A stretch of DNA of 55,589 bases from a virus (lineage: Duplodnaviria; Caudoviricetes). Below are positions 869 to 50,123 of the stretch, one piece after another. The position numbers and the translations under genes are program-made. Under the pieces are notes generated by a model. It saw only the letters and a list, made by a program, of their open reading frames with translations, was not told the DNA's origin and did not search any database. The stretch spans positions 1-55,589 of IMG/VR virus record IMGVR_UViG_3300043400_000016; one strand, written 5' to 3'. Every line of letters starts with the position of its first letter. Positions within the stretch are counted from its first letter, which is position 1.

Positions 869-1148
869 GTTAGTTTAAGGGAAATATCAGGGATAATTCA
901 AAAATACGTACTGTTTTCAAAAATTGGGACATTTAGGGTGGGAGTTGGTGGTGATTAAGTAGGTATAAATAACAAGCTCACCAACCCACTATAAATTATG
1001 AAGTAGGTACACTAATGCATCAGGTACCACCACATCATGTGCCAGGCACCCAGGTACAACCTACATCATCATCCGTGCTCATAATGCCATCAGTGTACCT
1101 GTACCTGCTCTTCAGTACTCAAACACTGTTTACTTCAAATCAGGCTAT

Positions 1149-1175
1149 TTGACATCCGAGTGTTTCTGTTAGTCT
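1149..1175 (+). promoter_or_regulatory. sigma70-like promoter of the ParB-like gene
   Basis: TTGACA 1149-1154, TAGTCT 1170-1175 (15-bp spacer), followed by AAGGA and ATG 1209. Confidence 0.5.
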
Positions 1176-1208
1176 GATAACTAACCCACAGTTCCAGAAA
1201 GGAACATC

Positions 1209-2045
1209 ATGCCCCACGCGTTACCCAAAGTGAAGACAGCGGAGGAAAGAGCTACCAATCCTTTCAAGACCGTGTTCAAAGAAATTGAACTCACAAAACT
1301 TATCCCGCATCCAAACAACCGGAAAGACGATTACACCGATGACGCTTTCAAAGAACTCGTAGCTTCAATAAAAGAAGTTGGCGTCCTTACTCCGATACTG
1401 GTACGTGAGGATCTTTCCGGTTATCAGATTATTGGTGGGCACCGCCGTTACTATGCTGCGGTGCAGTGCGGCATTAAAAAACTGATGTGCTCCATATCTT
1501 CTGCCTCCGAGCAAGAAGGGTTGATGTACAAGAGTGTTGATAACTCTAACCGGAAAGAGATGAGCGGCATGGAGTGGTACTCAGATTTCTTGTCCTACAA
1601 AAAGTTTGGCGGTACTAGGAAAGAACTCGCTGCTAAGATGGGCAAGAGTGAGGAGTGGCTTAAGAAGTTAATCCAGATTGGTAAGCTCCCCGAAGACATC
1701 CGTAAGCAGGCTCGAAAGGAACGCTGGTCATTAAACAAACTGACTACTTACAAGCCTCCCCATAATCCTACTAAATTAGTAGGGGATGGGGAGGATCCTC
1801 CCCAAGTAGAACAAAAAGATAAAGATATCCGGAATGCGGTACCCAAGGCTAAGGACAGCAAACAGCGTTTGCAGAAGTCGCCAGAAAAAGAAGTAGCCGA
1901 AGTGGCTGTGATACTAGCCATCGGTGACCGGCAGTTTGAGCTAACTGGCAAGTGGGAGTCTCTGGCCTTATCTAACACAGAGAAGTGGCTGAAGTCGCTG
2001 ATGGCGGGTAAACCGCTGGGGTTCACTGGCTACACTGAGCTATGA
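1209..2045 (+). CDS. ParB/Spo0J-family protein (ParB N-terminal domain plus HTH)
   Basis: LIPHPNNR, ELVASIKEVGVLTPILVR, YQIIGGHRRYYAA (ParB box II GxRR) and TRKELAAKMGKSEEWLKKL helix-turn-helix. Confidence 0.85.
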   Translation: MPHALPKVKTAEERATNPFKTVFKEIELTKLIPHPNNRKDDYTDDAFKELVASIKEVGVLTPILVREDLSGYQIIGGHRRYYAAVQCGIKKLMCSISSASEQEGLMYKSVDNSNRKEMSGMEWYSDFLSYKKFGGTRKELAAKMGKSEEWLKKLIQIGKLPEDIRKQARKERWSLNKLTTYKPPHNPTKLVGDGEDPPQVEQKDKDIRNAVPKAKDSKQRLQKSPEKEVAEVAVILAIGDRQFELTGKWESLALSNTEKWLKSLMAGKPLGFTGYTEL

Positions 2046-2057
2046 TCGCAGAGACTG

Positions 2058-2303
2058 GCCAAACTCGCCGCGATTAAGCAATAGGGCGGCGATAAATGCC
2101 ATTGCCGCCATTATTATATCTACCCCCTATAGATTACGCATAAAAGCTGAGATCTTAGTTCCAATGGCTTCTATTCCGGTTTGCTCTAGTGCAGCTATGC
2201 CAGTAGTTAATAACAAACAGTGTTTGAGTATAGGTCAGAATAAACTCTGCCACCAACTCGCCAAACTCGCTAACTGATGCAGGTGAAGTCGCCAAACTCG
2301 CCG
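2058..2303 (+). repeat. direct repeats GCCAAACTCGC in non-coding DNA
   Basis: Copies at 2058, 2260 and 2291 plus partial CAACTCGCC at 2254. Confidence 0.6.
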
Positions 2304-2584
2304 TGCGTTTATTTTTATTATGTGCGCCACGCCATACATTTATTATTATGGATCGGCTCCATGGCGGCAGCGGAGCAGAGGACCAACCAGTGGAACTACG
2401 GTACCTGGGTGTGGAGGTACGCGGTGCTCCAGGTGCAGCGCCCCACCTGCCTTAGTGTTCATATGAACTCCAACTAGTCCGTATTGACCCTACTAACAGG
2501 GTTGAAACAAACTCCTTGACCATGTTTTCCCTGGCCTATGGTTTGCCTCAACAAGCCCACAAGGCACAACAAGGAACCAATACC

Positions 2585-2932
2585 ATGACACCAGAGCAAA
2601 TCCTTCCAGGTTATCTTGAAGCCTGTGCATGGGCTGAATCAGGAGACGAGGGTTGCAGCCTCGGAATCAATGCTCCCGACTTCTCAGAGCCTGCAAAAGT
2701 GTATGCACTGGAACGGTGCGAATCCTTCCTACATGACAATCCGGACGTTGAGGGATTGGACCCGGAACAGGTGGGCCATGACTTGTGGCTTACTTCCCGG
2801 GGGCATGGTGCGGGCTTCTGGGATCGTGGTTTAGGGGAACGGGGTCACCGTCTGACCAAGCGAGCCAAGCTTGAGACTTGTGAGGTCTACGTCGGCGATG
2901 ATGGGTTGATCCATTTTGACGGTGAAAAATAA
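2585..2932 (+). CDS. hypothetical early protein (acidic, conserved phage-type GHDLWLT..GHGAGFWDR motif)
   Basis: ORF track 2516-2932; start moved to ATG 2585 behind AAGGA. Confidence 0.75.
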   Translation: MTPEQILPGYLEACAWAESGDEGCSLGINAPDFSEPAKVYALERCESFLHDNPDVEGLDPEQVGHDLWLTSRGHGAGFWDRGLGERGHRLTKRAKLETCEVYVGDDGLIHFDGEK

Positions 2933-3012
2933 CCTATTGACACCATCTCCCTGCCAGTAATCTCAAAGCATAACCAAGAGGGAATCACCCTCTACAAAAA
3001 CCGGAGTCAACC

Positions 3013-3315
3013 ATGCCCGCCACGAAGCCCACCATCCCCACCGGCAAGAAGTTTCACACGCATATCACCCGCATTGGTGCCTGCGATCATGTCACCCTGT
3101 ACGCAACTACGATTGCGATCCGTGACAACGAGAAGGGTACCATTACCCTGCGGACCGGAGGCTACAACACACCGACCACTATTCGGCGGATGAACGAATG
3201 CTTAAACCAGTGGGTGGGGCCGTGGAAGTGCCGCGTGAACAAGGCCACGTTCAAGAAGGCTGATGAGGTTGTGTTCGACATTGCCACTGCTAATCGTATC
3301 CATAAGAAAGGGTGA
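3013..3315 (+). CDS. hypothetical early protein, paralog of 3639-3914
   Basis: GGAG RBS; shares LY.T.IA..D...G.I.L.TGG..TPTT.RRMN..L with 3639-3914. Confidence 0.8.
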   Translation: MPATKPTIPTGKKFHTHITRIGACDHVTLYATTIAIRDNEKGTITLRTGGYNTPTTIRRMNECLNQWVGPWKCRVNKATFKKADEVVFDIATANRIHKKG

Positions 3316-3319
3316 TACC

Positions 3320-3556
3320 ATGGCCCAGGTTAAAATCTCGAATATTATCTACGACACGGATGAAGAAGGGGCTACCCAGGCCGTAGCCCCTAAGGAACTG
3401 ACCCTGGAAGTCTCGTTTGACGAGGATCCGGACGACATGGCACCGGGTGAGGTGGAGGAAGCCATCGCTGAGGCTATCAGTGAGCGGGTTGGTTGGTGTG
3501 CTTATAGCTTCTACTACACCATCACCAAGCCCATCGTTGTCCATGCCAGTGAATAA
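3320..3556 (+). CDS. small acidic hypothetical early protein
   Basis: ORF track 3263-3556; start moved to ATG 3320 just after the upstream stop. Confidence 0.7.
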   Translation: MAQVKISNIIYDTDEEGATQAVAPKELTLEVSFDEDPDDMAPGEVEEAIAEAISERVGWCAYSFYYTITKPIVVHASE

Positions 3557-3638
3557 ATAACTCCCTTGACATTTCCATACCTCGGTTAGTTTAAGCACAT
3601 AAATAAGGGCAGTAAGCCCTACAAACTCGGAGTCCATC

Positions 3639-3914
3639 GTGGCACGTCAACACACCAAGATCCCCACCAAGCCAGGTTACAACACTACTGTCCTGCGTGA
3701 TTCTAACGGACACATTATGGTGGTACTGTACAATACGTGCATTGCTCGCATCGACGACAGGGCAGGTATCATCAAGCTCAACACTGGGGGATTCAGCACC
3801 CCTACCACCATGCGCCGGATGAATGCGGCACTGATTGAGTACGGTTTTCCGCAACGGGTGTGCAAATCGGACTTCAAAGACACTCGCAACATCACCCTCC
3901 ACAAGGAGGGGTGA
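3639..3914 (+). CDS. hypothetical early protein, paralog of 3013-3315
   Basis: Own promoter, GGAG RBS, GTG start, shared TGG..TPTT.RRMN motif. Confidence 0.8.
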   Translation: MARQHTKIPTKPGYNTTVLRDSNGHIMVVLYNTCIARIDDRAGIIKLNTGGFSTPTTMRRMNAALIEYGFPQRVCKSDFKDTRNITLHKEG

Positions 3915-3997
3915 AATAACCTCTTGACGTATACTTGCCCTTGGTTAGACTCCACACATAACCAAGGGCTAAGCCCTACACTACAAGGAAAAGCATC

Positions 3998-4138
3998 ATG
4001 ACTTCCAGCATTATTGCCGTAAAAAATCCCAGCGGTTCTGGATGGATACTGGTTTATATTCACGGTAAGATGGTTGGTGGTAAGTATAGTGATAAGGTTT
4101 ACGCTTCTAAGCACGAGGCGGAAAACAACATCATATAA
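3998..4138 (+). CDS. 46-aa hypothetical early protein (not in ORF track)
   Basis: MTSSIIAVKNPSGSGWILVYIHGKMVGGKYSDKVYASKHEAENNII*, behind promoter 3924 and AAGGA. Confidence 0.7.
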   Translation: MTSSIIAVKNPSGSGWILVYIHGKMVGGKYSDKVYASKHEAENNII

Positions 4139-4174
4139 CAATCGGGCATGCCCTATAAACCAAGGAAAAGCATC

Positions 4175-4393
4175 ATGACTTCCACTAATCCCATCACGGT
4201 AGAGAATGGCAAAGCAACATGGACCCATCGAGCCGGTGACACGTATGCAGTTACGGGCACGGATCGCAACGGCGTACGGTTTAAACGTGTTTGTGGCTCA
4301 TTTGCCATGGCCAAAGGTATCAATACACAACAAGGAACCCGTTGGTTAGTCCGTGACGGACGTAAGTTCCGCATCCAACGCATCGGTCATTGA
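4175..4393 (+). CDS. small basic hypothetical early protein
   Basis: ORF track 4148-4393; start moved to ATG 4175 behind AAGGA. Confidence 0.7.
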   Translation: MTSTNPITVENGKATWTHRAGDTYAVTGTDRNGVRFKRVCGSFAMAKGINTQQGTRWLVRDGRKFRIQRIGH

Positions 4394-4449
4394 TTCGTAG
4401 TCCAACGATCACGGTTAATCATATAATCCTATCGACAAGGAATCAAACC

Positions 4450-4878
4450 ATGCCCCACATTTGCCTGGAACCCTACAAGCAGACTTTCAAGTGTGATGAT
4501 TGCGGCTCTGAAGGACCGTCATTCCCTAACGGCATGACCTCGGCTTATAGCATAACGCACAACCCTGATGGCTCGGAATTACTTCGTTGCCCCGCGTGCG
4601 CACATAAGCATGACATAGCGGAGTTCGAGAAGTGCGGAGACGAAGGCAAACCGTTTTATGGGTACTTCGACGAAGATCACAACCTGATTGGTTTACGCGG
4701 TAATATCTTGGCACGCAATGTGCATGCATTCCCTTGCAAACTAGCGCGACATAGCTTTATGCATCACGGCAGGCCATACAAGAGCGTGCATGTTATTGAC
4801 CCTCAAGGCCGTATCTGGTACGGTCGTGGGTCCGCTGGCATTTGCTGCACCATGCGAATGAATAAGGCCCGTAAATAA
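4450..4878 (+). CDS. hypothetical protein with Zn-ribbon (CxxC...CxxC)
   Basis: CDDC and CPAC motifs; AAGGA RBS before ATG 4450. Confidence 0.7.
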   Translation: MPHICLEPYKQTFKCDDCGSEGPSFPNGMTSAYSITHNPDGSELLRCPACAHKHDIAEFEKCGDEGKPFYGYFDEDHNLIGLRGNILARNVHAFPCKLARHSFMHHGRPYKSVHVIDPQGRIWYGRGSAGICCTMRMNKARK

Positions 4879-4918
4879 TCCTTTTCCCGTTCAACCCTTT
4901 CAACAAAGAATAAATATC

Positions 4919-5101
4919 ATGATCGAATCCCTTCCCGCTCCCATGGAACAAGTGTCACAAGCTCCAAGACATTCCACCCCGTTCCGCAGGGGTATTCAAG
5001 CCTTCAAGGCTGGAAAGGAACTGTCGGACTTCCACCCAATGGACAAGGACTACGAACAACTCAGAGCGGGTTGGTTGTACCAGGAAGGGATGGAGGCATG
5101 A
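4919..5101 (+). CDS. small hypothetical protein
   Basis: 60 aa, ATGA overlap with next gene. Confidence 0.6.
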   Translation: MIESLPAPMEQVSQAPRHSTPFRRGIQAFKAGKELSDFHPMDKDYEQLRAGWLYQEGMEA

Positions 5102-5337
5102 GTTGGGCCGCGCTAGATGCAACAGACATTCTGATTGCCCGTAAATTAAACCTAGACGGTCCTGGAGCTTTCGCCTTGCGCGAAGCCGGTGGTCGGCTAA
5201 TGGTGTGGGCCACGATCCCCGACAGTGAAAACGACGACGGAAGAAAAGCCGTATATCGTAGCACGAAGCCCATAACTGACCTGATGTGGCGGCGGGTGCA
5301 GCTACACCCATGGATTACGCAATGGGAAAGGCAGTAA
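5098..5337 (+). CDS. small hypothetical protein
   Basis: GGAGG RBS, ATGA coupling upstream and TAATG coupling downstream. Confidence 0.65.
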   Translation: MSWAALDATDILIARKLNLDGPGAFALREAGGRLMVWATIPDSENDDGRKAVYRSTKPITDLMWRRVQLHPWITQWERQ

Positions 5338-5507
5338 TGAACCAAGACGCGATAGATAGCCGCCGATATCAGTGTGAGGTTGCATATGAAGCGGGGAAGA
5401 AAGACGGGATCCGTGGAATATCAGAATCCAGAGCTATGACTAATTCTAAGCAGTACGAAGACAGCGACCAGTACCTGGAAGGGTATTACGACTTCTTAGC
5501 TCAGTGA
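5337..5507 (+). CDS. small hypothetical protein
   Basis: TAATG coupling with upstream stop; MNQDAIDSRRY... Confidence 0.55.
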   Translation: MNQDAIDSRRYQCEVAYEAGKKDGIRGISESRAMTNSKQYEDSDQYLEGYYDFLAQ

Positions 5508-5655
5508 GTAGTTGAGAATCATTCTCATCTAGTAAACAGTGTTTGCGCCGTAGGCTTGGGCATGGAAAGTCCCTCTTGACGTAGGCAAGCCGGGGTTGTA
5601 GACTCCACCCATAACAAGCCAGAAATGGCACAATCCCCACAAGGAAACCAGGATC

Positions 5656-6150: not shown

Positions 6151-6225
6151 CGCAGCCTTGCCCCTCTTGTATACTTTACCCATACAAGAGGGGCAACCCT
6201 CACAACCCCAGCAAAGGGAACCGTC

Positions 6226-6471: not shown

Positions 6472-6554
6472 AACAACCCTCTTGGCACTTTCAACCCCCT
6501 GGCTATATTCAACACATAACCAGGGGTTAAACCCCACAACAAGGAATCAAGATC

Positions 6555-8529: not shown

Positions 8530-8681
8530 CGATTTGGTAAGTCTAATTTTATATGGCTATTGACGAGCACGTAGCAAACAGTTTTTGCTACCCACGTGAT
8601 ATTTACAGTGTCACAACCAGTTGCCGTAGCTAGGATTTGGTCATACCACTTCCGTAAACGCCACACGGCGGCGAGGCAACC

Positions 8682-10230: not shown

Positions 10231-10232
10231 TC

Positions 10233-11473: not shown

Positions 11474-11580
11474 CAAACCAACCGTGTTGGTACCAACACG
11501 GTGTTATTTTACATAGTTATTGACAAATCTACGGTAAACAGTGTTTGCTGGAAAATAGAGGGGCTGATAATAGCCCCTCT

Positions 11581-12176: not shown

Positions 12177-12614
12177 TTGACATTATCTATCGTGGTTCAT
12201 TCTGCTGCGGTGAAGCGAAAGCAATTACAGCAATGTGCTACGATAGCTCGTGCCAATTTTTACAAACACCCAAGCCAGACATACCGCCTTTGGGCATTTG
12301 TCTGGCAGGGTGGAGAATTAGTCGATTGGTCTACGAACAAAAAAGCAACTGCTCGGCTTAGAAGATGCGGCTATGGTGTTCCTGGTAATAATTGCCACAG
12401 GGATACTTTACACGCGGAGCCGGAAGCTTTTAGGAAATCTTACGGATTACTAGATCACCGGAAGGCGTGGTCCATAGTCTGCATAAGAATTAGGAAAGAC
12501 ATGAGTTTCGGTATGGCCTGCCCGTGTGCCCTATGTAACAGTTTTATAAAAGCCCATGGTTGCAGCGAGGCGTACTTTACAGTTTACGGAAATGATTTTG
12601 CAAAGATTGTTTGA
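12177..12614 (+). CDS. Zn-dependent cytidine/dCMP-deaminase-superfamily protein
   Basis: LHAE and ACPCALC motifs. Confidence 0.75.
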   Translation: MTLSIVVHSAAVKRKQLQQCATIARANFYKHPSQTYRLWAFVWQGGELVDWSTNKKATARLRRCGYGVPGNNCHRDTLHAEPEAFRKSYGLLDHRKAWSIVCIRIRKDMSFGMACPCALCNSFIKAHGCSEAYFTVYGNDFAKIV

Positions 12615-13228
12615 GGGCCTTTAGTCATCTGGTCTATTATTTTCTTTGGTGCATTATTTATGTCATGATTTTCATTGAAGAGGGTCAGGAGAGTTGCCGC
12701 CTGTTCTCTGGTTAAGGGCCTTGAAAGAATGTGCTTGAGTCTGTTTTGAAGTTCAATAGGAAGCAGTTGAGAATAGGGAAGAAAAGGATTCCTATTTGCG
12801 CTTGTTCTTAACTTAGGAACAGGCCTATTGGACGCATTAAGATTAGATAGTGTGTGCCCCAACTTAACGTGTTTCTCTTTTTGAGCTTCCGATAATTTTT
12901 CCCATTTTGGGAAAATCTTAGGATAGCTAAATACGGTACTCGCCAGAATATCCGCTGGATATCCGTTGAGAGCCATGGCTAGCTCCACGGCCTCAATTTC
13001 CGTTATATCGTGGACTTCACACTCAATTTCGTCAACGTCAAGCCTAAGAGCCGCAGATAAGCGGGCGTGACCGTCTACTAGCACGTTATCTTTAGTTACA
13101 TGAATAGGCTGAAGCAGTCCAATGTTTTTTACACTGTTGTAGATCAGTGAGTCTCTAAGCTGGGTTTGTTTTCTTATTCTATTTGGGGTAATTTGTCCTG
13201 GATGAAGCGTGGTAGATGTAATAGCCAT
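12584..13228 (-). CDS. ParB-like N-terminal domain protein
   Basis: SVKNIGLLQPIHVT...LVDGHARLSAA; start probably MAITS at 13228. Confidence 0.75.
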   Translation of the reverse strand: MAITSTTLHPGQITPNRIRKQTQLRDSLIYNSVKNIGLLQPIHVTKDNVLVDGHARLSAALRLDVDEIECEVHDITEIEAVELAMALNGYPADILASTVFSYPKIFPKWEKLSEAQKEKHVKLGHTLSNLNASNRPVPKLRTSANRNPFLPYSQLLPIELQNRLKHILSRPLTREQAATLLTLFNENHDINNAPKKIIDQMTKGPQTIFAKSFP

Positions 13229-14073
13229 GTTCTTACAGTTTTGTTGTTGGGCTGAATAGAGGGTATCTTGCCGTATGCACAAAGTAGCGTAGCCACCGCC
13301 AACGCCTTGCCGCGAGTCATCTGATTTACTCTGACAAGCATGCTCATAAGCCCCGAACTACTTGGCATCTCCGGTTCGTTCATAAGTTCTTCTAATAGAT
13401 CCATCGGAACAACGGGAGGAACAGACTTCGGCCTACCCCGACTCTTGGCCATTGGGTCCGTTATTTTTTCTAACTGTGAAATGGTAATATGCTTATTTGC
13501 ATGTATGGCTTCTTGAAGCTCGGTCTCTGGGAGAGACTTTACTGCTTGGAAAGCTTCTGCTACGCGGGCATACGATATGTTGAGAGAAAAAGATATCTCG
13601 CCAATAGTCATTTTGGTTTGGAGTAATAACCATGCCGTGTACAGGGACAGCGGGTGTCGGTTCAACCGGTAATGCTGAAATACTGGTATGCTGCCGCTAG
13701 GGTACACTATACACTCAGCCGTATCTTTTACTCCCTTTAATGTTCTATAATACCACTGATTTCCGTCCAGAATTAAAAACTTATTTTCATTTATTTTTTC
13801 TACCACAAGAGGATAAGCCCTAGTACCGATTGGCAGTGACGCTCCTGGGACTGGTGGTACAAGGGGAAAAAGTTTAGACACCGGAACTACTTCTCTTAAG
13901 TGTATGCCTTTTTGCAAAGCCTCACACTCGTCAAGAGAAAGCTCTCTATCCCTCATCAATTTTTTCTGCAACGGTGTCGCCATAAGAATAAGACGATAAC
14001 GCTGGGTGTTCTTAACTGATTCTTTTACTTTACCCTGGGAGACTAATTCTGCCCTATCAATAGCGCACGTCAT
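13174..14073 (-). CDS. degenerate ParB-like protein with HTH
   Basis: YPLVVEK...FLILDGNQWYYR resembles ParB box II without the Arg finger; TIGEISFSLNISYARVAEA HTH. Confidence 0.5.
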   Translation of the reverse strand: MTCAIDRAELVSQGKVKESVKNTQRYRLILMATPLQKKLMRDRELSLDECEALQKGIHLREVVPVSKLFPLVPPVPGASLPIGTRAYPLVVEKINENKFLILDGNQWYYRTLKGVKDTAECIVYPSGSIPVFQHYRLNRHPLSLYTAWLLLQTKMTIGEISFSLNISYARVAEAFQAVKSLPETELQEAIHANKHITISQLEKITDPMAKSRGRPKSVPPVVPMDLLEELMNEPEMPSSSGLMSMLVRVNQMTRGKALAVATLLCAYGKIPSIQPNNKTVRTWLLHLPRFIQDKLPQIE

Positions 14074-14435: not shown

Positions 14436-14524
14436 GGCTATGGTTTATAGGACGCCCTAATAAGTCAAACACTGTTTGCGTGGTATTGTAGTTGGCCTAT
14501 TATTCGGGAACACTAGGAATTATC

Positions 14525-16164: not shown

Positions 16165-16806
16165 CTAGTCTATGTTATCTCTCCTAGCCAAGAACGTAAT
16201 CTGACTGGGAGACCAAGATACTTTTCCGTGCTTGTTAAGTCTATTACCGCGGCAAAGCTCACGGCACACGGATGAAAGGCTTTGATTACGCGCAAGATAA
16301 GTTCTAATCAGAACCAGGGTCAATTGCTGTTCTTCATTCTTAGACCCGTCAGGATTGAAGCCAAACGGTACGCCGCCTCTAAAACTTCCAGGCTTCTGTC
16401 GAAGAGTTTTTAAACCAGGAACAGCGTGATCTTTAAGATCAGAAACTAGTCCAACCACAGGCTCACGGTCAAACAGTGTTTTCTTTCCAGACGCTATCCA
16501 AGTATTTGCTCCTCCAGATTTACGGTATTTGAAGAAAAGATCTCTTGTGATGTACGACTGTGCAAAATCGTTGCACACAGCACACAGTAGAAATCTCACA
16601 CCCTCTACTGTAAATATTTTGTGAGCGGGAACGCCGCAGCATACGCACAACTTATCCGGGTTATCCCGAGACGCTAATTTTAGATCTTTATTAGCTCCTC
16701 TGCGGGGGTTTATTCTTGTACCGCATTTGGTACACCCGTAGATCTTACGCGGAGCAGTATCAACGTAGCTATGATCGCAATCCGGACATCGGCGTAGTAC
16801 AGGCAT
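16165..16806 (-). CDS. Zn-finger protein with serine-recombinase-type DNA-binding (Recombinase) domain
   Basis: Four CxxC pairs; C-terminal GGVPFGF...NEEQQ..L..I......SLSSVCREL...WSPSQI; no catalytic resolvase domain visible. Confidence 0.55.
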   Translation of the reverse strand: MPVLRRCPDCDHSYVDTAPRKIYGCTKCGTRINPRRGANKDLKLASRDNPDKLCVCCGVPAHKIFTVEGVRFLLCAVCNDFAQSYITRDLFFKYRKSGGANTWIASGKKTLFDREPVVGLVSDLKDHAVPGLKTLRQKPGSFRGGVPFGFNPDGSKNEEQQLTLVLIRTYLARNQSLSSVCRELCRGNRLNKHGKVSWSPSQITFLARRDNID

Positions 16807-18509: not shown

Positions 18510-18589
18510 TCGGATATGCGAATGATCGCAAACACTGTTTGCGATAACGGGCCGTGCCCACAAGCCGCTATGAGCGGTAGGAGATGTAG

Positions 18590-20043: not shown

Positions 20044-20316
20044 GTGAAAAACATCGCTGCCTTCTTGTTGGAGACTGTATCAACTCAAACAATGTTTGAG
20101 GCTGAAGGCAAGATCTCGGATAAGGCGGTGGCGATGTTCTATCCGCATCTCACAGCTCTTTCAAAACGTTTTGGAATAGAAGCTGAAAAAATCATACCCA
20201 TGTGGGAAATGATCTCTACGGAAGTGGAGCGGCTTTACCCAGATGACGCGGTAATGAAAAAGTTTATTCGGTCTACCATCATTATGATGTCTCATACTGG
20301 TGGGGCTAAAAAGTGA
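20044..20316 (+). CDS. hypothetical protein
   Basis: ORF track 19993-20316; GTG 20044 avoids overlap with the upstream gene. Confidence 0.55.
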   Translation: MKNIAAFLLETVSTQTMFEAEGKISDKAVAMFYPHLTALSKRFGIEAEKIIPMWEMISTEVERLYPDDAVMKKFIRSTIIMMSHTGGAKK

Positions 20317-20654
20317 GTAGAACGCTCCTGCTGCCGGAATCCCTTGACAATGAACCGGTGTTTGTTGTTACGTTTGACCGGTCTATGGATGAGTACTCTC
20401 TTGGTTTACGTAACGGTGCGACTTATCTACTCGGTAGCCATGATGACGCAGTTATGTACTTCACGAAGAAGCTAGCCAATTACAAGCTTCCACCATTCTG
20501 GGTAGACGATCTTGTTAACCGTGCCAACGCTTTCATTGCCGTACAAGCTGACCCAGAGTTCTTTTCTATAATCCAGTGCGATTTGCCGTCGTCAGTCACG
20601 GAATATGAAATTCTATTTCAGCGTACCAGTAAACTAACCGCAAACACTGTTTGA
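20313..20654 (+). CDS. hypothetical protein
   Basis: 113-aa ORF, GTGA overlap. Confidence 0.6.
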   Translation: MSRTLLLPESLDNEPVFVVTFDRSMDEYSLGLRNGATYLLGSHDDAVMYFTKKLANYKLPPFWVDDLVNRANAFIAVQADPEFFSIIQCDLPSSVTEYEILFQRTSKLTANTV

Positions 20655-23768: not shown

Positions 23769-23930
23769 GTAATTTGTGTAAGCAAACTCGCAAAATACTT
23801 ATTACATAGAAACTAACGTCGAACTTAGGCTTAGTTGGTATTGGGATTGCCCTGCGTGCGCCCACAGGAATATCGCAGGAGGCGATCACCTGGTTCCGGA
23901 GGATGAGTAGCTCTGCAAACAGTGTTTGAA

Positions 23931-26647: not shown

Positions 26648-26678
26648 CATTACAAGGCAAACAGTGTTTGCTCAACAT

Positions 26679-29790: not shown

Positions 29791-29877
29791 TACGCAAACA
29801 CTGTTTGCATTCTAAGCCCTCAGAACGGTTGCACGCTGTGCTAATCAGGTACATTTAATGTTACCAAGGAATATGCC

Positions 29878-31013: not shown

Positions 31014-31061
31014 CCGCAAACATTGTTTGCAATAACTCGTGAATACACGAAAAAGGCTAAT

Positions 31062-34536: not shown

Positions 34537-36161
34537 TGAGCGCCCCTTATTCAGTCGAAAACAGCATCCGTGTTCATGATGAAGCAATTTATAACTGGCT
34601 TCAGGGTCTGCACGTTGACTACGGAATAATAAACGGACAGGATAAGACTAACGCTTCTATTTTGACAGTCTTCGCATCGCCCGACCGGGCATTTGCTACT
34701 ATCTATGACATGGTAACAAAGAACGGGTTCGTTGCTCCTAGTACTAATGACTCTGAAACTCGTGCCAACATTGACAGTATTCTAAAAGTTTTGCCGCTAC
34801 CAGTCGCCACGATTGAGCGTTTGGAGCCGGTTCCTTTGCGTGAGCTAAACCATGCTCCCGCTAAAGATCCAAGATCATATTTTGATCCTACTACAGGGCA
34901 GTGGATATCGTGGAGCGCTCCAACTACTTACCAATGTGATTATGCCGTAACATTTTGGTCACTGAAGCAAAGCACCGATGTATTCATACGTGACTGGGTT
35001 TACGGGCAGCTCGGTATTATCGGTAGCGGTAACTACGAAACATTCATTCCGGTTCAGCACAACCCTGCGATAGGGATATCTAACCAATCGTTAAAACTTG
35101 TAAGCTCAACCAATCTATCGTACCTTGAAGGCTTGAGCCAGCGTTATATACGCACTCGGTTTGTCTTCTCGTTACGTATGCTGATATTTAAGAATCTTCC
35201 AAGTGATATCGCCCCCGGTTCAGAATTCCTCGGTAACGCTACTGGCGCTTTTGCGGGCATGAACGCTGCTCAGCCAATTTTTAATGTCGGGGTTAACGTC
35301 GTGGTCCCCAAAGGTGACGGGGTTGTTACGTACAGCGAAGATGCAATTGACGCGCTGCGATTAACCGGAAGTTACACCGGCAATCTATACCGGTACAATA
35401 ATAATTTGTATTACCCGTGGAATCTCTACGGTAACGCTACAGCGGGCTATTCGCAACTGTATCCTAGCGGCGTAGCTGTTACTCCGGATGCCCGGTACTC
35501 TTTGCGAGGCACGCTGAGTGCTGAATCTGACGCAGTAGAGATCATAACGACCCCAGTTTTACAAGAGGCTGACGGGTCTGCTTTAGTACTATTCTACATG
35601 TACTATACGTCAGACCAGCCAGTGCTGTTCAACGTTAATAACGTAGACCCGACTTCATTAGTTAGAACCGTGGCACTATCGACGGCACTTCCGGCTACTG
35701 GTGGGGCATGGCAGAGAATGCGTGTATACGCTGTCGTCACCAGTTCATTGATGTCTGCGGGCTTTTACGGGTCAGCCACGCAAACAGTGTTTGCGATAGC
35801 TAAAGGCGATGTCAGGCAGAAGGCATGGTATTCAGTGTCCCCTAGTTATACGCCGGTTATTACGACCGCTGGCTCTAATACAGTCTACACATTCACGGTG
35901 CCCGCCGGCACCACGTATCTAGCGACCATTAAGCTATCCTCTGCTGCTAGCGCAGACTTCGCAGTAGCGGTGAACAATTCTATAAGTGGCGCTACTTACT
36001 CTAAGACTAATATTGTAAAATCTGGAACCGGTGTAGGGGCTGTTTTCTTAGTGCAGCCTGTTGCTACCACTTTTACGATAACCATTCCTGCCTCCGTCAC
36101 GGTTGCATCAGTCACCGCCAAAGGATACTCAGGACCGTACTACCCTAGCGACTTGGGCTAA
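34536..36161 (+). CDS. tail terminator/completion protein (gp15-like) with C-terminal beta-rich extension
   Basis: LPLPVATIER, P.TYQ.DY.VTFWS, RYIRTRF.F.L; upstream of sheath. Confidence 0.6.
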   Translation: MSAPYSVENSIRVHDEAIYNWLQGLHVDYGIINGQDKTNASILTVFASPDRAFATIYDMVTKNGFVAPSTNDSETRANIDSILKVLPLPVATIERLEPVPLRELNHAPAKDPRSYFDPTTGQWISWSAPTTYQCDYAVTFWSLKQSTDVFIRDWVYGQLGIIGSGNYETFIPVQHNPAIGISNQSLKLVSSTNLSYLEGLSQRYIRTRFVFSLRMLIFKNLPSDIAPGSEFLGNATGAFAGMNAAQPIFNVGVNVVVPKGDGVVTYSEDAIDALRLTGSYTGNLYRYNNNLYYPWNLYGNATAGYSQLYPSGVAVTPDARYSLRGTLSAESDAVEIITTPVLQEADGSALVLFYMYYTSDQPVLFNVNNVDPTSLVRTVALSTALPATGGAWQRMRVYAVVTSSLMSAGFYGSATQTVFAIAKGDVRQKAWYSVSPSYTPVITTAGSNTVYTFTVPAGTTYLATIKLSSAASADFAVAVNNSISGATYSKTNIVKSGTGVGAVFLVQPVATTFTITIPASVTVASVTAKGYSGPYYPSDLG

Positions 36162-39097: not shown

Positions 39098-39152
39098 CTT
39101 TGCAAGAACATAATAACTGCAAACAGCGTTTGCAGGCATAGGAAATATAACC

Positions 39153-42096: not shown

Positions 42097-42120
42097 CTGC
42101 AAACACTGTTTGAGTAAACT

Positions 42121-46876: not shown

Positions 46877-47173
46877 GTGAGTAGCTGCTTCACCTCTACC
46901 GCAAACAGTGTTTGCACTGATACTGTCTGCTCGTGTGGGGTTGAAATGGACCCTACAGAACTGGCGTTAGTCTGGCAGAAAAGAGCACTTCCGATTATGG
47001 TCAGACTCATGAGACACGGGCACATGGTTGATCGTTCTAGGATAAATAAAACCATGGAGCTTTTGCTCGGTATAGAGCGAGGGTCAGTTAATTCCCCTGA
47101 ATCTTATGAGCTAACAGCAAGCAGCCATCACTTGCCGCCCTGCACTTGGCGCAAGCGCTTCCGTTCTGCCTAA
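46877..47173 (+). CDS. hypothetical protein
   Basis: 98-aa ORF with AGGAG RBS. Confidence 0.45.
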   Translation: MSSCFTSTANSVCTDTVCSCGVEMDPTELALVWQKRALPIMVRLMRHGHMVDRSRINKTMELLLGIERGSVNSPESYELTASSHHLPPCTWRKRFRSA

Positions 47174-47192
47174 CTGACCATATCTTTTGCCC

Positions 47193-47591
47193 ATGGCTAC
47201 TGCATCCTTAACCGGCTTGGCATTACCCGCCGCCAAACGGTCGGGGTCTAACTATCTAGATTCAAAGTCTAATGCTCAAGTAGCCTGGGGTGATCTTCTG
47301 ATGGCGCTTATTGTGCCAGCCGGCACCCGTCCACTGAGCAGATCATTCGGCAGTAATATTCACCGTTACATATTTGAGCCAAATGACAATCGTACGCAGA
47401 CCATGATTCGGTACATCATAGAACAGGCTGCGGCAAAATACGCTCCTATGGTTAAAGTTGCTAACGTGGCAATCACCAGTAGCGCTCAGACACTAAACTT
47501 CGTTATCACGTTCAAGATGGCCAACGATACTACCACGTACCAAGACTCAGTATCTTTCCCTCAATCTGCATTCTTCTCAACAACGCGGTGA
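47193..47591 (+). CDS. baseplate wedge/sheath initiator (gp25-like)
   Basis: G.RP....FGS.I..YIFEPND, I..A...Y.P.V.V. Confidence 0.85.
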   Translation: MATASLTGLALPAAKRSGSNYLDSKSNAQVAWGDLLMALIVPAGTRPLSRSFGSNIHRYIFEPNDNRTQTMIRYIIEQAAAKYAPMVKVANVAITSSAQTLNFVITFKMANDTTTYQDSVSFPQSAFFSTTR

Positions 47592-47595
47592 CGCT

Positions 47596-50091
47596 ATGCC
47601 CGACACAATCAACTATACGGCCAGAGACGCCACGACTATCCGCGCTGAGTTGCAGAGGGCTATAAAAGAAACCGCTCCGGATCTATGGAATGATTTTAAT
47701 ACTTCAAATCTTGGAAGTGTACTCATTGATCTTATCGCGTTGACCGGCGACACTCTTTCATTTGGGCAGGATGTAATTGCCCAAGAAATGTTTTTGAGTA
47801 CTGCACAGCGCTACGATTCAGCTATCCGTAAAGCTCGTGATGTTGGCTATAAACCTCGTGCCGCTGTCGCTGCCACCGTCACCGTTCGTTCAACTAGCAT
47901 GCCGGGTCAACTTACGACTTACGGGGGAACAATTAAATCCGGAAGCAGTATCACCGGGGCTAACGGCCTAAATTATGAAGTCGTATCAGATACGGTCATA
48001 TCCCCCGGCGCGGGATACATCCGAGTACCGCTTAAAGAGGGAAAGTCGTATCAGGAAATATTCAGGACTTCCAGTCAACCAAGAATGGCTATCACGTTGA
48101 CCAACGCGAATGTTGAAGAGTTGTCTTGGGGAGTAACCGTCAACGTCTCCGGTACTCCGGTTACGTGGTCTCAAGTTGATAATGTCGCTCTGGAGTTATC
48201 CGCAACCAATACATATCAAGTATTCCTAGACGGCAGCAATAAAGCAATTTTCACTTTCGGTGACGGTGTGGCTGGAGCTATCCCCTCTGGCGATATTACA
48301 ATTGCGTATCGGACAACAAACGGGGCCTCCGGTAACTCCGGTATTGGAACCATCAGGGGTACCCTCCAAGCGATAATTAACGTAGACGGATCTACGGTAC
48401 CCGTACCAGTTGAAAACACTGACACAGTAAATGCTGACACTGGCGGCTCCCTGTTTATATCTGGCGAACCGCAGGCATTAACTAATACCGGAAGCGCGGA
48501 TAAGTCATTTACTCAAATACTTCAGAATAGTCCGTTAGTTCCCGGATCTTTGACGCTTACTATTTACCCCACCGGTAACGTCAGTGATGGTTCTTTGATT
48601 TTGAAAGACACGGCAAACGCAACTTTCACGATCCTACTTAATAGTACCGTTACAACATATATTATCGGATCTACAAATTCTATAAATTATGCCAACGGCA
48701 CTTGGGCATTCAATCTTTCTCCCGCGTCAGGGTCTCTAAATTTCTCCGGTACAGTTAAGCCTTCGTTTCTTGCGGGGTATTATGCGTCAGCAGCACCAGC
48801 CGTATCTGCGGTAATAACGACTGGTGCTGCTTCTGGCGGTCAAGACCGTGAGACTATTGCTGAGCTGCGTGTAAATATTCCAGCGTATGTTCGTTCTCGC
48901 GGAACTCTCGTCACGCTCCAAGATTACAAGGACGCCCTAACGAATGTCGCTGGGGCCGGCCTAGTTGTTCCCGATCTATGGATTGGGTCACACGTAGCTA
49001 ACACTATTCGTTTGAGTCTATGGAGCAAAGAAAGCGTATCGTTCGCTTCTGAATCACCTACCACGGCTCTTAGCTCGTCTGACCAGAGCACGATTTACTA
49101 TTCCCGGTATGTCAGGGCTACAAGTTCAACTGTTTACAACGTAGCTAAGGCTATGCGTAACCGGAATCAGATAACTGTGCGTCCTGCTATTACGGTCAAC
49201 GGTATGCGGTGGGTCGATCTTTACTTGGAGACTATCAAGTACGACTCAACGTACCCAAAAAACCAGATCAGAACCGCGATTACATCGGCTATCGTTGACG
49301 TATTTCAGAATGCTGACGGTTTGTCAGTTTACACGTCAGATATCTACAACGCCGTTAACTCGGTAGATGGTGTTAGCTACTTTAAATTATCTCGGCTGGC
49401 ATACGGCGACTATAACGCTACTTCAGCTGATTCGGAAAACATCGGGGCTACGTCTACTAGTGCTACGATTTCTGGTGCGGTGGCTAACCCGACTGTAGTT
49501 CCTGGGACTTTGACTATAACGGTTAATCAGCCAAGCGGTAATACTACGGTTCTTCAGGATACTAACGGCGACGGAATCCTATACGTTACTTCAGGCCCAA
49601 TGGTTCTTACCACACCGTCTTATGGTGCGGTCAATTATATAGACTATAATAGCGGTATCTGGAACATAACTTTCACTGCTAGCTCTTTGGTGGCCAATCA
49701 GATTGTATCAGCTACGTACAGAGACGTTATTACTGATTTGCGTGCTACCCAAGTGGTAAAATTTGGTGTTACGAACGACAATGTGTACGCAGGTGACGCC
49801 TACCCACCGCCTACGGTCAATAGCATCCCTGGCTACCCGTCTTCAATGCCTCCGTTTAAGGACGGTCGCCCCCTGTATCCCGCAGTCCCGACAAATAGTT
49901 CACTGTCAATTGGGTCGCTGCTAACATATGGGGTGTTGCAGGACATCATAACTCCGCTGGCTTCACGGCAGAACTACTACGACGACTCGTATCTTTACAA
50001 TGGCGAGATATTCTATGACTCGCAATTGGTAAGTCAGGCTCCGCGTGCGATAAATCTTCGCCGCCTTGTTTTTGATCTGGCCCCCAAGTAA
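47596..50091 (+). CDS. baseplate wedge protein (gp6/gpJ-like)
   Basis: INYT.RD..TI, WNDFN.SN.G..LI.L.A..GD.LSF, FGDG..G.IP, GGQD.ET, VT.QDY. Confidence 0.9.
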   Translation: MPDTINYTARDATTIRAELQRAIKETAPDLWNDFNTSNLGSVLIDLIALTGDTLSFGQDVIAQEMFLSTAQRYDSAIRKARDVGYKPRAAVAATVTVRSTSMPGQLTTYGGTIKSGSSITGANGLNYEVVSDTVISPGAGYIRVPLKEGKSYQEIFRTSSQPRMAITLTNANVEELSWGVTVNVSGTPVTWSQVDNVALELSATNTYQVFLDGSNKAIFTFGDGVAGAIPSGDITIAYRTTNGASGNSGIGTIRGTLQAIINVDGSTVPVPVENTDTVNADTGGSLFISGEPQALTNTGSADKSFTQILQNSPLVPGSLTLTIYPTGNVSDGSLILKDTANATFTILLNSTVTTYIIGSTNSINYANGTWAFNLSPASGSLNFSGTVKPSFLAGYYASAAPAVSAVITTGAASGGQDRETIAELRVNIPAYVRSRGTLVTLQDYKDALTNVAGAGLVVPDLWIGSHVANTIRLSLWSKESVSFASESPTTALSSSDQSTIYYSRYVRATSSTVYNVAKAMRNRNQITVRPAITVNGMRWVDLYLETIKYDSTYPKNQIRTAITSAIVDVFQNADGLSVYTSDIYNAVNSVDGVSYFKLSRLAYGDYNATSADSENIGATSTSATISGAVANPTVVPGTLTITVNQPSGNTTVLQDTNGDGILYVTSGPMVLTTPSYGAVNYIDYNSGIWNITFTASSLVANQIVSATYRDVITDLRATQVVKFGVTNDNVYAGDAYPPPTVNSIPGYPSSMPPFKDGRPLYPAVPTNSSLSIGSLLTYGVLQDIITPLASRQNYYDDSYLYNGEIFYDSQLVSQAPRAINLRRLVFDLAPK

Positions 50092-50123
50092 CCGCAAACA
50101 CTGTTTGCTAAGCGAGTCTGGTT

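What the first reader, a model, noticed from the sequence alone, without database searches (positions are those of the whole stretch)
1120..50107. A 13-15-bp palindrome tiles the genome at about 3-kb intervals; candidate binding site for the phage ParB-like proteins
Seen: (G)CAAACASTGTTTG(C) or 1-nt variants at about 22 sites. A backbone at 2215, 5534, 8576, 11536, 14467, 18530, 20642, 23917, 26659, 29796, 32946, 35782, 39121, 42101, 46903, 50096 has gaps mostly of 2.7-3.3 kb (exceptions 4.1, 2.1, 4.8 kb). Some copies sit inside coding sequence (32946, 35782) at the expected interval, and sites occur in early, late and tRNA regions alike. Others flank or overlap promoters (1121 before the ParB gene; 14467 on a TTGAC -35 of the second ParB-like operon; 8576; 11536). 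Established: the ParB-family protein KorB of IncP-1 plasmids binds dispersed 13-bp palindromes with a central S (TTTAGCSGCTAAA) and both partitions and silences. Inference: regular spacing points to a genome-wide architectural role (clamp loading and spreading, compaction, shielding, segregation or packaging) rather than simple operators.
Basis: partly seen in the sequence, partly recalled or inferred. Interest (0 to 1): 0.82.

Follow-up and report, generated by a model that had tools for sequence, protein, structure and literature searches.

The report
Evenly spaced ParB-type palindromes in phage
A 13-15-bp palindrome recurs about every 3 kb along the DNA of an uncultivated T4-like freshwater phage, most likely as the docking site of the phage's own ParB-type DNA clamp, and a distant relative has the same layout with a different palindrome.

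Summary
CAAACASTGTTTG occurs 12 times exactly and 21 times with at most one mismatch; 0 and 0.04 are expected. The 20 gaps are far more even than random placement gives (CV 0.447, p = 7e-5; 11 of 20 gaps are 2.7-3.4 kb). Spacing follows base pairs, not gene number.

The window is a fragment, about 38% of a T4-like myovirus genome. A second contig (G001) from the same sample carries the same palindrome.

A syntenic relative, G006, shares 27-40% protein identity with G001. It has nine perfect copies of a different 13-bp palindrome, TAAACGWCGTTTA. These are also evenly spaced (p = 0.0018), and three lie inside the DNA polymerase and two helicase genes. No other locus among 145 control viral loci shows such a repeat.

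Each record encodes a canonical ParB (N-terminal domain plus helix-turn-helix, above the TIGR00180 cut-off). Palindromes lie next to that gene, and the recognition helix differs where the palindrome differs.

The best reading is a set of ParB/KorB-like loading sites tiling a lytic phage chromosome. Binding is not shown. I rate it a new variant of a known kind, interest 0.8.

The parts
1120..1132 (.). palindrome copy, 1 mismatch (last base A); 76 nt upstream of the ParB gene and 16 nt upstream of a TTGACA hexamer
1209..2045 (+). canonical ParB (P0001, 278 aa): N-terminal ParB domain with GGHRRYYAA motif plus helix-turn-helix
   Evidence: Pfam ParB_N 4.4e-14; TIGR00180 86.2 bits vs cut-off 58.45; Spo0J 1vz0 5.3e-19 over residues 26-165, KorB 8qa8 4e-7
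1859..1871 (.). palindrome copy, 1 mismatch (CAAACAGCGTTTG), inside the ParB coding sequence
2214..2226 (.). exact palindrome copy, 168 nt downstream of the ParB gene
5533..5545 (.). palindrome copy, 1 mismatch (first base T), intergenic, about 30 nt upstream of a sigma-70-like early promoter (TTGACG-17-TAGACT)
8575..8587 (.). palindrome copy, 1 mismatch, intergenic; starts 9 nt after a TTGACG hexamer; extended dyad GTAGCAAACAGTTTTTGCTAC
11535..11547 (.). palindrome copy, 1 mismatch (first base T), starts 9 nt after a TTGACA hexamer and follows a terminator-like hairpin (11481-11502)
12584..13282 (-). second ParB-fold ORF (232 aa), N-terminal domain only
   Evidence: Pfam ParB_N 24.5 bits / 26.4 bits in six-frame search vs cut-off 26.3; PDB ParB 7bnr 3.2e-5; TIGR00180 21.5 bits, below cut-off
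13174..14073 (-). orphan ORF (299 aa) in the same minus-strand operon; ParB/HTH_ParB-like only by language-model features and a weak predicted-structure match (a lead, not a finding)
   Evidence: TM 0.37-0.44, pLDDT 0.57; no Pfam, PHROG, NCBIfam or PDB sequence hit; no homologue among 1.84 billion representatives
14466..14478 (.). exact copy between the divergent minus-strand operon (first ORF ends at 14435) and the plus-strand gene; TTGAC reads on the minus strand across its left edge
16470..16482 (.). copy with 1 mismatch inside minus-strand ORF 16165-16806
18529..18541 (.). exact copy (17-bp dyad CGCAAACACTGTTTGCG), intergenic after the QueD-like gene
20086..20098 (.). copy with central A, inside ORF 19993-20316
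20641..20653 (.). exact copy at the junction before the prohead protease gene (start 20651)
23916..23928 (.). exact copy between the major capsid gene and the tRNA cluster
26658..26670 (.). exact copy in the 30-nt spacer between two tRNA-Glu genes
29795..29807 (.). exact copy, intergenic
31017..31029 (.). copy with central T, 3 nt after a stop codon
32945..32957 (.). exact copy inside ORF 32390-33085
35781..35793 (.). exact copy (17-bp dyad) inside the 541-aa ORF 34536-36161
39120..39132 (.). copy with 1 mismatch (CAAACAGCGTTTG) before the baseplate hub gene
42100..42112 (.). exact copy filling most of a 24-nt intergenic spacer
46902..46914 (.). exact copy, 68 nt after the stop at 46833 (inside the doubtful GTG-started ORF 46877-47173)
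50095..50107 (.). exact copy in a 32-nt spacer after the baseplate wedge gene
54210..54224 (.). degenerate remnant (one good half-site with the usual TAACTG flank), about 4.1 kb after the last full site

Best explanation
The palindrome is a dyad-symmetric site on double-stranded DNA. It most likely serves as the loading or binding site, analogous to parS or KorB's O_B, for one of the phage's own canonical ParB/KorB-type proteins (nucleotide-binding N-terminal domain plus helix-turn-helix). The sites are kept 2-5 kb apart, most often about 3 kb, along the chromosome of an uncultivated T4-like freshwater myovirus.

The proposed mechanism is inferred from what is known of ParB and KorB. A ParB dimer recognises the palindrome, closes as a nucleotide-gated clamp and slides away. 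Because a site lies within about 1.5-2.5 kb of every position, clamps from neighbouring sites would cover the whole phage DNA. Where a site overlaps an early sigma-70-like promoter (8575, 11535, 14466, and 1120 before the ParB gene) it would also act as an operator, which would include autoregulation.

What is shown: the sites exist, their spacing is even, ParB genes co-occur with and lie next to sites, and palindrome and ParB differ together in a second lineage. What is inferred: binding, clamp behaviour, sliding range, and the purpose of the coat.
For: **The motif is real and evenly spaced**
- 12 exact and 21 near-exact copies, against 0 and 0.04 expected.
- Gap CV 0.447, p = 7e-5 under uniform placement and 2.5e-4 under the gene-boundary null.
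- Distance CV is 0.18 for the backbone and 0.45 for all sites. Feature-count CV is 0.58 and 0.80, so spacing follows base pairs.

**It acts on duplex DNA**
- The dyad is perfect and the flanks are symmetric (G before, C after).
- The central base follows no consistent strand.
- A stable RNA hairpin is predicted for only some copies: -10.6 and -9.2 kcal/mol at two sites, -4.1 at a third, and none at the G006 site.

**Canonical ParB genes are present**
- TIGR00180 cut-off is 58.45 bits. P0001 scores 86.2, G001's P0003 107, and G006's ParB 74.6.
- PDB sequence matches to Spo0J, ParB, Noc and KorB span the N-terminal domain plus HTH.

**Sites lie next to the ParB genes**
- Within 200 bp of the HTH ParB gene: 3 of 21 in the window, 2 of 6 in G001, 1 of 9 in G006. 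Combined p = 0.0075.
- In both G001 and G006 one site lies roughly 10-25 nt past the ParB stop codon.

**A second lineage repeats the pattern**
- G006 is syntenic with G001: portal, a terminase-like gene (40% identity), gp46/47-like genes, exonuclease, ParB (31%) and UvsX.
- It has nine perfect copies of TAAACGWCGTTTA with gap CV 0.317, p = 0.0018.
- Three copies lie inside the DNA polymerase, DnaB-like helicase and helicase genes.
- The ParB recognition-helix stretch differs between lineages: GYSGQHVRNRL against GCSAMKVRKSV.

**The pattern is rare**
- Of 145 other viral loci of at least 9 kb (2.24 Mb), only the G006 locus has three or more dispersed copies of any perfect 6+0-2+6 palindrome.
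- Among 2.9 million viral contigs, only G001 holds several copies of the window's motif.

**There is precedent**
Against:
- If the window and G001 belong to one genome, it encodes two HTH ParBs with different recognition helices (P0001 GKSEEWLKKLI, P0003 GYSGQHVRNRL). Both are flanked by the same palindrome, so which one binds is open. No second dispersed motif exists for the other.
- The parallel change of ParB and palindrome rests on two lineages only.
- G006 has just one site near its ParB gene (p = 0.36 alone).
- G001's six sites with at most one mismatch are not significantly regular on their own (p = 0.19). They become regular only when two 2-mismatch sites are added after the fact (p = 0.0075), and about 0.7 such sites are expected by chance.
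- The P0003 family has no recognised ParB C-terminal dimerisation domain.
- The stretch of P0003 that aligns with the second nucleotide-binding box departs from that of P0001, so nucleotide gating is uncertain.
- 12 of 21 window sites and 6 of 9 G006 sites are intergenic (p = 5e-7 and 9e-6). That also fits a transcriptional role.
- The sliding range is borrowed from KorB.
Confidence: 0.55

Rival explanations
1. The palindrome binds some other dimeric phage protein, not a ParB: a transcription factor, a nucleoid-organising protein or a replication factor, perhaps encoded in the roughly 45% of the genome not in hand. The closeness to ParB genes would then reflect only regulation of those genes.
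For: More than half of the ORFs scanned have no family assignment. The records are 38%, 17% and 23% complete. Two different HTH ParBs are flanked by the same motif, which would be natural if a third protein regulates both.
Against: No other DNA-binding domain turned up in the ORFs scanned. The 6+1+6 build matches KorB's operator. ParB is the one sequence-specific DNA-binding family found in all three records, and it diverges together with the motif.
Confidence: 0.2
2. The palindrome is a transcription signal, such as a middle or late promoter element, an activator site or a transcription-unit boundary. The spacing would then merely reflect operon lengths.
For: 12 of 21 window sites and 6 of 9 G006 sites are intergenic. 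Many lie just after a stop codon and 8-50 nt before the next start. Several overlap sigma-70-like hexamers. The T4 late-promoter octamer (recalled motif) is not enriched, 5 found against 2.3 expected, so the late promoter of this phage is unknown.
Against: Sites lie inside the DNA polymerase and two helicase genes in G006, inside five window ORFs, and between two tRNA genes. The number of genes between sites varies from 2 to 14 while distance stays near 3 kb. The major capsid and tail sheath genes have no site directly upstream. The element is symmetric with no fixed downstream box.
Confidence: 0.1
3. The palindrome is the target of a DNA-modifying or DNA-cutting enzyme. It could be a sparse, site-specific 7-deazaguanine insertion by the DpdA-like transglycosylase helped by a ParB-fold partner, or a site-specific nick.
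For: The lineage carries 7-deazaguanine genes: a QueD-like ORF at 18141-18509, and in G001 a queuine-tRNA-ribosyltransferase-like ORF next to a ParB N-domain-only ORF plus two QueC-like ORFs. ParB-fold proteins without a DNA-binding domain activate phage thymine dioxygenases on duplex DNA (PMC13229309, abstract and discussion). DpdB of the bacterial Dpd system is ParB-like (PMC10164549, passages). Some phages carry only a few hundred 7-deazaguanines per million nucleotides (Vibrio phage nt-1: 232 + 72 + 44; PMC6884629, Table 2). That is close to the density of these sites.
Against: No guanine of the motif is invariant across the 1-mismatch copies. The ParB-fold proteins match no DpdB model in PADLOC. 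Phage nt-1 has neither a ParB domain nor any recurrent palindrome. Nothing in modification or nicking explains even spacing.
Confidence: 0.1
4. The element works as an RNA hairpin, for processing or stability.
For: Copies with extended flanks fold well as RNA: -10.6 kcal/mol at 18529 (z = -5.0) and -9.2 at 35781.
Against: Other copies do not: -4.1 at 42100 (z = -1.25), and the G006 copy forms no hairpin. The conserved core leaves only a 3-nt loop on an A/T-rich stem. Copies occur inside genes and between tRNAs.
Confidence: 0.03

Closest known systems
KorB and its O_B operators on IncP-1 plasmid RK2
   Same: KorB is a ParB-family protein with an N-terminal nucleotide-binding domain and an HTH. 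Its target is a 13-bp palindrome with a central base pair (the O_B oligonucleotide is printed in PMC11790492). Its sites are dispersed over the replicon, some at promoters and some far from them. The clamp slides up to 1.5 kb to act at a distance (abstract). P0001 and P0003 match the KorB structure 8qa8 by sequence (4e-7 and 1.5e-9).
   Different: RK2 is a plasmid with a partition ATPase and the KorA and TrbA lock proteins. Here the host is a lytic-type T4-like phage, and no ParA-type ATPase was found in the three fragments. Even spacing and sites inside essential genes are not, to my recollection, features of O_B. The number of O_B sites (12) is also recalled, not from a call.
Noc and its binding sites scattered over the Bacillus subtilis chromosome
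   Same: Noc is a ParB paralogue that binds many palindromic sites spread along a chromosome rather than one centromere. The phage ParBs match Noc structures 7ol9 and 7nfu by sequence.
   Different: The phage proteins score 69-96 bits on the Noc model TIGR04285, whose cut-off is 315. Noc's membrane-tethering role and the layout of its sites are recalled, not tested. There are no division sites to protect in a phage.
Chromosomal and plasmid ParB-parS centromeres, including phage P1 ParB
   Same: The protein family is the same (TIGR00180 met). The cognate palindromes lie next to the parB gene.
   Different: Centromeres are one or a few clustered sites used with ParA for segregation. Here there are tens of sites tiling the DNA, and no ParA was found.
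BisD-CTP clamp of ICEclc (PMC12409273; search listing and start of abstract only)
   Same: BisD is a ParB-like clamp on a mobile element that regulates genes at long distance. This shows ParB clamps can activate as well as silence.
   Different: It works on an integrative conjugative element with few sites. I did not read the body of the paper.
ParB-fold activators of phage DNA-modifying enzymes (5mYOX-associated ParB, PMC13229309; DpdB, PMC10164549)
   Same: These are phage or defence-island ParB-fold proteins without a DNA-binding domain that sit beside a DNA-modifying enzyme. G001's P0004 beside the DpdA-like ORF and window ORF 12584-13282 look like this class.
   Different: They are not sequence-specific binders, and no dispersed palindrome is described for them in the parts I read (abstract and discussion of the first paper, passages of the second).

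Membership tests
ParB/KorB-type DNA clamp with cognate palindrome | ParB N-terminal (nucleotide-binding) domain | tested here: met
   PF02195: P0001 52.7 bits, P0003 58.3 bits, G006 ParB 44.1 bits; cut-off 26.3
ParB/KorB-type DNA clamp with cognate palindrome | Helix-turn-helix DNA-binding domain directly after the N-terminal domain (canonical architecture, TIGR00180) | tested here: met
   TIGR00180: 86.2, 107 and 74.6 bits against cut-off 58.45. PF17762 is above cut-off for P0003 and the G006 ParB. It is not listed for P0001, whose HTH is covered by the Spo0J alignment to residue 165.
ParB/KorB-type DNA clamp with cognate palindrome | GxxRxxA nucleotide-binding motif | tested here: met
   GGHRRYYAA (P0001), DGHRRYAAA (P0003), CGYRRKASA (G006 ParB). 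One close homologue, P0140, has C in place of the first R.
ParB/KorB-type DNA clamp with cognate palindrome | Second nucleotide-binding/hydrolysis box (E/D-N-x-x-R) | tested here: inconclusive
   P0001 has DNSNR aligned to ENLQR of Spo0J. P0003 has SDVTR at the aligned place.
ParB/KorB-type DNA clamp with cognate palindrome | C-terminal dimerisation domain | tested here: inconclusive
   PF23552 is absent from P0003 and its five closest homologues but present in most bacterial hits. No Pfam hit in the C-terminal parts. The region may be a different dimerisation module.
ParB/KorB-type DNA clamp with cognate palindrome | Palindromic site(s) next to the parB gene | tested here: met
   Window sites 1120, 1859 and 2214 around gene 1209-2045. 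G001 sites 24121 and 25344 around gene 24142-25302. G006 site 13198 below gene 13223-14335.
ParB/KorB-type DNA clamp with cognate palindrome | Specific binding of the protein to the palindrome; CTP-dependent clamp closure and sliding | not testable with these tools
   No protein-DNA modelling or experiment was available.
ParABS partition system | ParA-type ATPase partner | tested here: not met
   PF13614 gave no match in G000, G001 or G006, although it was found in all 14 control genomes. The records are fragments, so absence from the whole genome is not proven.
Noc (nucleoid occlusion protein) | Score above the Noc model cut-off | tested here: not met
   TIGR04285: 78.8, 96.3 and 69.5 bits against cut-off 315
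DpdB of the Dpd 7-deazaguanine system | Match to a DpdB model | tested here: not met
   No Dpd model in PADLOC matched any of the ParB-fold proteins; only ParB-fused methyltransferase models matched.
Promoter or transcription-unit boundary element | Confined to the upstream regions of genes, with a fixed orientation | tested here: not met
   5 window sites and 3 G006 sites lie inside ORFs, including DNA polymerase and helicases. One lies between two tRNA genes. The element is symmetric.

The most novel reading that the evidence does not exclude
A lytic T4-like phage keeps a lattice of clamp-loading sites about every 3 kb so that a nucleotide-gated ParB clamp coats its entire chromosome. The sites are written even into its DNA polymerase and helicase genes. 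The coat would be a genome-wide device rather than a centromere or an operator set. It could mark or shield phage DNA against nucleases and host defences, gather the replicating DNA into a ParB condensate, carry the 7-deazaguanine modification enzymes along the DNA, or serve as a mobile activator of late transcription in the way T4's sliding clamp does (recalled).
Probability: 0.3. Interest if true: 0.9.

Novelty: new variant of a known kind. Interest (0 to 1): 0.8.

Why it matters
ParB proteins are known as centromere binders and, in KorB, BisD and Noc, as regulators or organisers that act from a handful or a scatter of sites. A virulent-type phage that spaces such sites evenly along its whole chromosome, and pays for it by embedding them in essential genes, would point to a whole-genome use of a sliding DNA clamp.

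The spacing would then be a natural read-out of the clamp's range in vivo. The two lineages, with different palindromes and different recognition helices, offer a ready specificity-swap experiment.

It would also give a function to the orphan ParB genes that surveys find widely on mobile elements (PMC12704722, passages).

Three full-text searches found no paper describing evenly spaced ParB-type sites in a lytic phage. The library lacks most subscription journals.

Tried and rejected
**Searches for close relatives**
- Megablast of window 1-20000 against phages found nothing.
- The capsid protein reached at best 33% identity in phages.
- The single-protein capsid search of viral contigs found nothing. 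The capsid alignment found only relatives at 38% identity or less, and none of them carries the window's motif or a recurrent palindrome.
- Metagenome contigs gave two short loci. Genome contigs gave nothing.
- ParB P0001 has no close homologue.
- The terminase-like alignment found only G001 and G006.
- Proteins 55-85% identical to the capsid, and 79% identical to P0003, exist on contigs of 60-95 kb. I could not fetch those contigs, because the tool that would do so is closed.

**Vibrio phage nt-1 lead**
- It has sparse 7-deazaguanine, but no ParB domain and no recurrent palindrome in 247,511 bp. Dropped.

**Other checks that led nowhere**
- DpdB identity of the N-domain-only ParB proteins: no PADLOC match.
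- T4 late-promoter octamer (recalled motif): 5 found against 2.3 expected, not enriched.
- A second dispersed motif for a second ParB: none.
- RNA hairpin: not conserved.
- ORF 14492-15544 as a ParB: no family hit and no similarity.
- ORF 13174-14073: ParB-like only in the protein atlas. No sequence support and no homologue. Left open.
- The G006 17-mer in viral contigs: two other contigs hold single copies, which is chance level.
- Sequencing runs: no RNA holder is listed, so nothing can be said about transcripts.
- Supplementary files of the papers were not consulted.

Full report
**1. The observation**

The pattern CAAACASTGTTTG is present 12 times exactly (0.00 expected). With at most one mismatch it is present 21 times (0.04 expected).

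Most copies extend to a 15-bp palindrome. G precedes the core in 21 of 27 copies and C follows it in 19 of 27 (window plus G001). It is the only highly recurrent dispersed motif in the sequence.

- The CV of the 20 gaps is 0.447. This gives p = 7e-5 against uniform placement and p = 2.5e-4 against placement on the 86 predicted gene boundaries.
- The largest gap is 4.8 kb (p = 0.004-0.007).
- 11 of 20 gaps are 2.7-3.4 kb, against a null mean of 1.7. That bin was chosen after seeing the data.
- The 12 exact copies alone are not significantly regular by CV (p = 0.09).
- Between the backbone sites the distance varies little (CV 0.18), while the number of genes and tRNAs varies from 2 to 14 (CV 0.58). 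Spacing therefore tracks base pairs, not genes.
- By my ORF list, 12 of 21 sites are fully intergenic in a sequence that is 88.6% covered by features (p = 5e-7). Five lie clearly inside ORFs: 1859, 16470, 20086, 32945 and 35781.

**2. What the sequence is**

The window is a whole virus record, but it is linear and CheckV rates it 38% complete. Its last ORF runs off the end.

Its annotated genes are:

| Feature | Coordinates |
|---|---|
| T4-type major capsid protein | 22201-23706 |
| gp21-like prohead protease | 20651-22135 |
| Tail sheath, tail tube, baseplate proteins | late region |
| 20 tRNA genes | 24119-28831 |
| QueD-like enzyme | 18141-18509 |
| Early region with sigma-70-like promoters followed by stem-loops | about 2.9-7 kb |

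No terminase, portal or DNA polymerase was found in it. No cultured phage is close; the capsid reaches at most 33% identity.

**3. A second piece of the same phage**

I scanned 2.9 million viral contigs for the extended palindrome. The two scans returned 20 and 70 stretches, nearly all with single copies as chance predicts. One contig, G001 (28.2 kb, 17% complete), has five exact copies and one with a single mismatch.

G001 shares no DNA similarity with the window, and only the ParB domain matches at protein level. Several things link it to the window all the same:
- Its G+C content is 48.0%, against 47.7% for the window.
- Its tetranucleotide usage correlates with the window's at r = 0.78. 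The best of 63 control loci reaches 0.54.
- Contigs of the same freshwater metagenome sample that holds the window also cover G001's second half with no differences.
- Its genes complement the window's: portal, a terminase-like ORF, gp46/47-like nuclease, UvsX, Holliday-junction resolvase, a DpdA-like transglycosylase and two QueC-like ORFs.

The two are probably fragments of one genome of roughly 150-165 kb. Equal read depth was not tested.

All six G001 sites are intergenic. Taken alone they are too few to show regular spacing (p = 0.19). Adding two 2-mismatch sites gives gaps of 4035, 2148, 3361, 2670, 2928, 4565 and 1223 (p = 0.0075). That addition is post hoc, and about 0.7 such sites are expected by chance.

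**4. A second lineage with its own palindrome**

I took the homologues of G001's ParB and fetched 69 ParB-encoding viral loci. I then scanned them blind for recurrent perfect palindromes.

Apart from G001 itself, only the closest relative scored. This is G006: 31.1 kb, G+C 55%, 23% complete.
- It has nine perfect copies of TAAACGWCGTTTA, mostly inside a 17-19-bp dyad. They lie at 2167, 7230, 11357, 13198, 17322, 20466, 25323, 28081 and 30366.
- The gap CV is 0.317 (p = 0.0018). The largest gap including the ends has p = 0.006.
- G006 is syntenic with G001 at 27-40% protein identity.
- Three of its nine sites lie inside the genes for DNA polymerase, a DnaB-like helicase and another helicase.

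Across 145 control loci of at least 9 kb (2.24 Mb: 53 capsid-related, 64 ParB-related, 28 chance motif hits), no locus other than G006's has three or more dispersed copies of any such palindrome.

The phenomenon is therefore rare and replicated. It has the same 6+1+6 build and the same spacing in both lineages, but a different sequence.

**5. The link to ParB**

Each record encodes a canonical ParB.

| Protein | Record | TIGR00180 score (cut-off 58.45) |
|---|---|---|
| P0001 | window 1209-2045 | 86.2 bits |
| P0003 | G001 | 107 bits |
| ParB | G006 | 74.6 bits |

- Sequence matches to solved Spo0J, ParB, Noc and KorB structures cover the N-terminal domain and the helix-turn-helix.
- All three carry a GxxRxxA-type motif.
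- The tightest site clusters in the window and in G001 are at these genes. Three of 21 window sites and two of 6 G001 sites lie within 200 bp of the gene. G006 has one of 9, just past the stop codon as in G001. The combined p is 0.0075.
- The recognition-helix stretch differs between the G001 and G006 orthologues, as the palindromes do.
- No ParA-type ATPase was found in the three fragments.
- In the early region the sites overlap or abut sigma-70-like hexamers, at 8575, 11535, 14466 and upstream of the ParB promoter at 1120. This is as expected for operators.

It is the N-domain-only ORF 12584-13282 on the minus strand. Its neighbour, 13174-14073, is an orphan with only a weak ParB-like lead.

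N-domain-only ParB proteins are known activators of phage DNA-modifying enzymes (PMC13229309, abstract and discussion). One such protein sits beside the DpdA-like gene in G001.

**6. Mechanism**

The best-supported reading is that the palindromes are loading or binding sites of a phage ParB/KorB-type clamp. KorB loads at a 13-bp palindrome and slides up to 1.5 kb (PMC11790492). Sites about 3 kb apart would let clamps from neighbouring sites meet, so the whole chromosome would be covered.

This step is inferred, as are binding itself and the purpose of the coat. That purpose could be silencing, shielding, condensation, carrying modification enzymes, or activating late genes.

Weaknesses:
- There are no binding data.
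- There are only two lineages.
- In what is probably one genome, two HTH ParBs with unlike recognition helices are flanked by the same motif.
- The C-terminal region is atypical and one nucleotide-binding box is atypical in the P0003 family.
- The strong intergenic bias also fits a transcriptional role.

**7. Rivals**

- **Another DNA-binding protein (0.2).** It cannot be excluded with half the genome missing.
- **A pure promoter or boundary element (0.1).** Sites inside replication genes, a site between tRNAs, symmetry and bp-based spacing all speak against it.
- **A modification or nick target (0.1).** The lineage's 7-deazaguanine genes and the density of modifications in phage nt-1 suggest it. 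But nt-1 has neither ParB nor palindromes, no DpdB model matches, and even spacing would remain unexplained.
- **An RNA hairpin (0.03).** It is not conserved.

**8. Novelty**

The parts are known kinds: a ParB-family protein and a palindromic cognate site, with KorB, Noc and BisD as precedents for dispersed or long-range action.

What is new is the layout. The lattice is evenly spaced, extends as far as the sequence reaches, sits in a lytic-type T4-like phage, is imposed even on essential coding sequence, and is conserved in principle across two diverged lineages.

Three full-text searches found no description of this. The library lacks most subscription journals, and I did not see supplements.

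My verdict is a new variant of a known kind, with interest 0.8.

Noticed in passing
window 18141-18509; L021 7910-10240 (G001): The lineage carries 7-deazaguanine pathway genes: a QueD/PTPS-like ORF in the window, and in G001 a queuine-tRNA-ribosyltransferase (DpdA)-like ORF next to a ParB N-domain-only ORF plus two QueC-like ORFs. The phage DNA is probably modified.
   Followed up: partly
window 2900-7000 (for example 3920-3980, 5576-5604, 6147-6175, 6478-6538): Repeated early-region cassettes: a sigma-70-like promoter (TTGAC-N16-17-TAnAcT) followed by a conserved stem-loop. They resemble the promoter-plus-stem-loop cassettes described in T4-type phages (recalled).
   Followed up: no
window 24119-28831: A cluster of 20 tRNA genes, four on the minus strand, interspersed with two HNH endonuclease ORFs (25914-26435 and 28867-29418).
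   Followed up: no
window 13174-14073 (minus strand): An orphan 299-aa ORF with no homologue among 1.84 billion representative proteins. Its language-model features and weak predicted structure point to a ParB/HTH_ParB-like fold. If real, the window would hold three ParB-fold genes.
   Followed up: partly
L022 13962-14093 (G001 28062-28193): Eleven tandem copies of a 12-bp unit at the end of G001. Read depth rises there and many contigs break there in the laid runs.
   Followed up: no
L022 11296-13632 (G001 25396-27732, minus strand): A UvsX-like recombinase of 778 aa with an internal match to a LAGLIDADG homing endonuclease family, which suggests an intein or an inserted endonuclease.
   Followed up: no
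window 1859, 39120, 15690; G001 19556: A recurring variant half-site, CGTTTG instead of TGTTTG. It is the half-site change that separates the G006 palindrome from the window's. It might mark a sub-class of sites or tolerance at that position.
   Followed up: no
L239 7374-8606 (G006 23374-24606, minus strand): G006 encodes a DNA methyltransferase between its primase and helicase genes.
   Followed up: no
window 1-55589: Cumulative GC skew rises steadily to about 42-46 kb and then falls, although nearly all genes there are on the plus strand.
   Followed up: no
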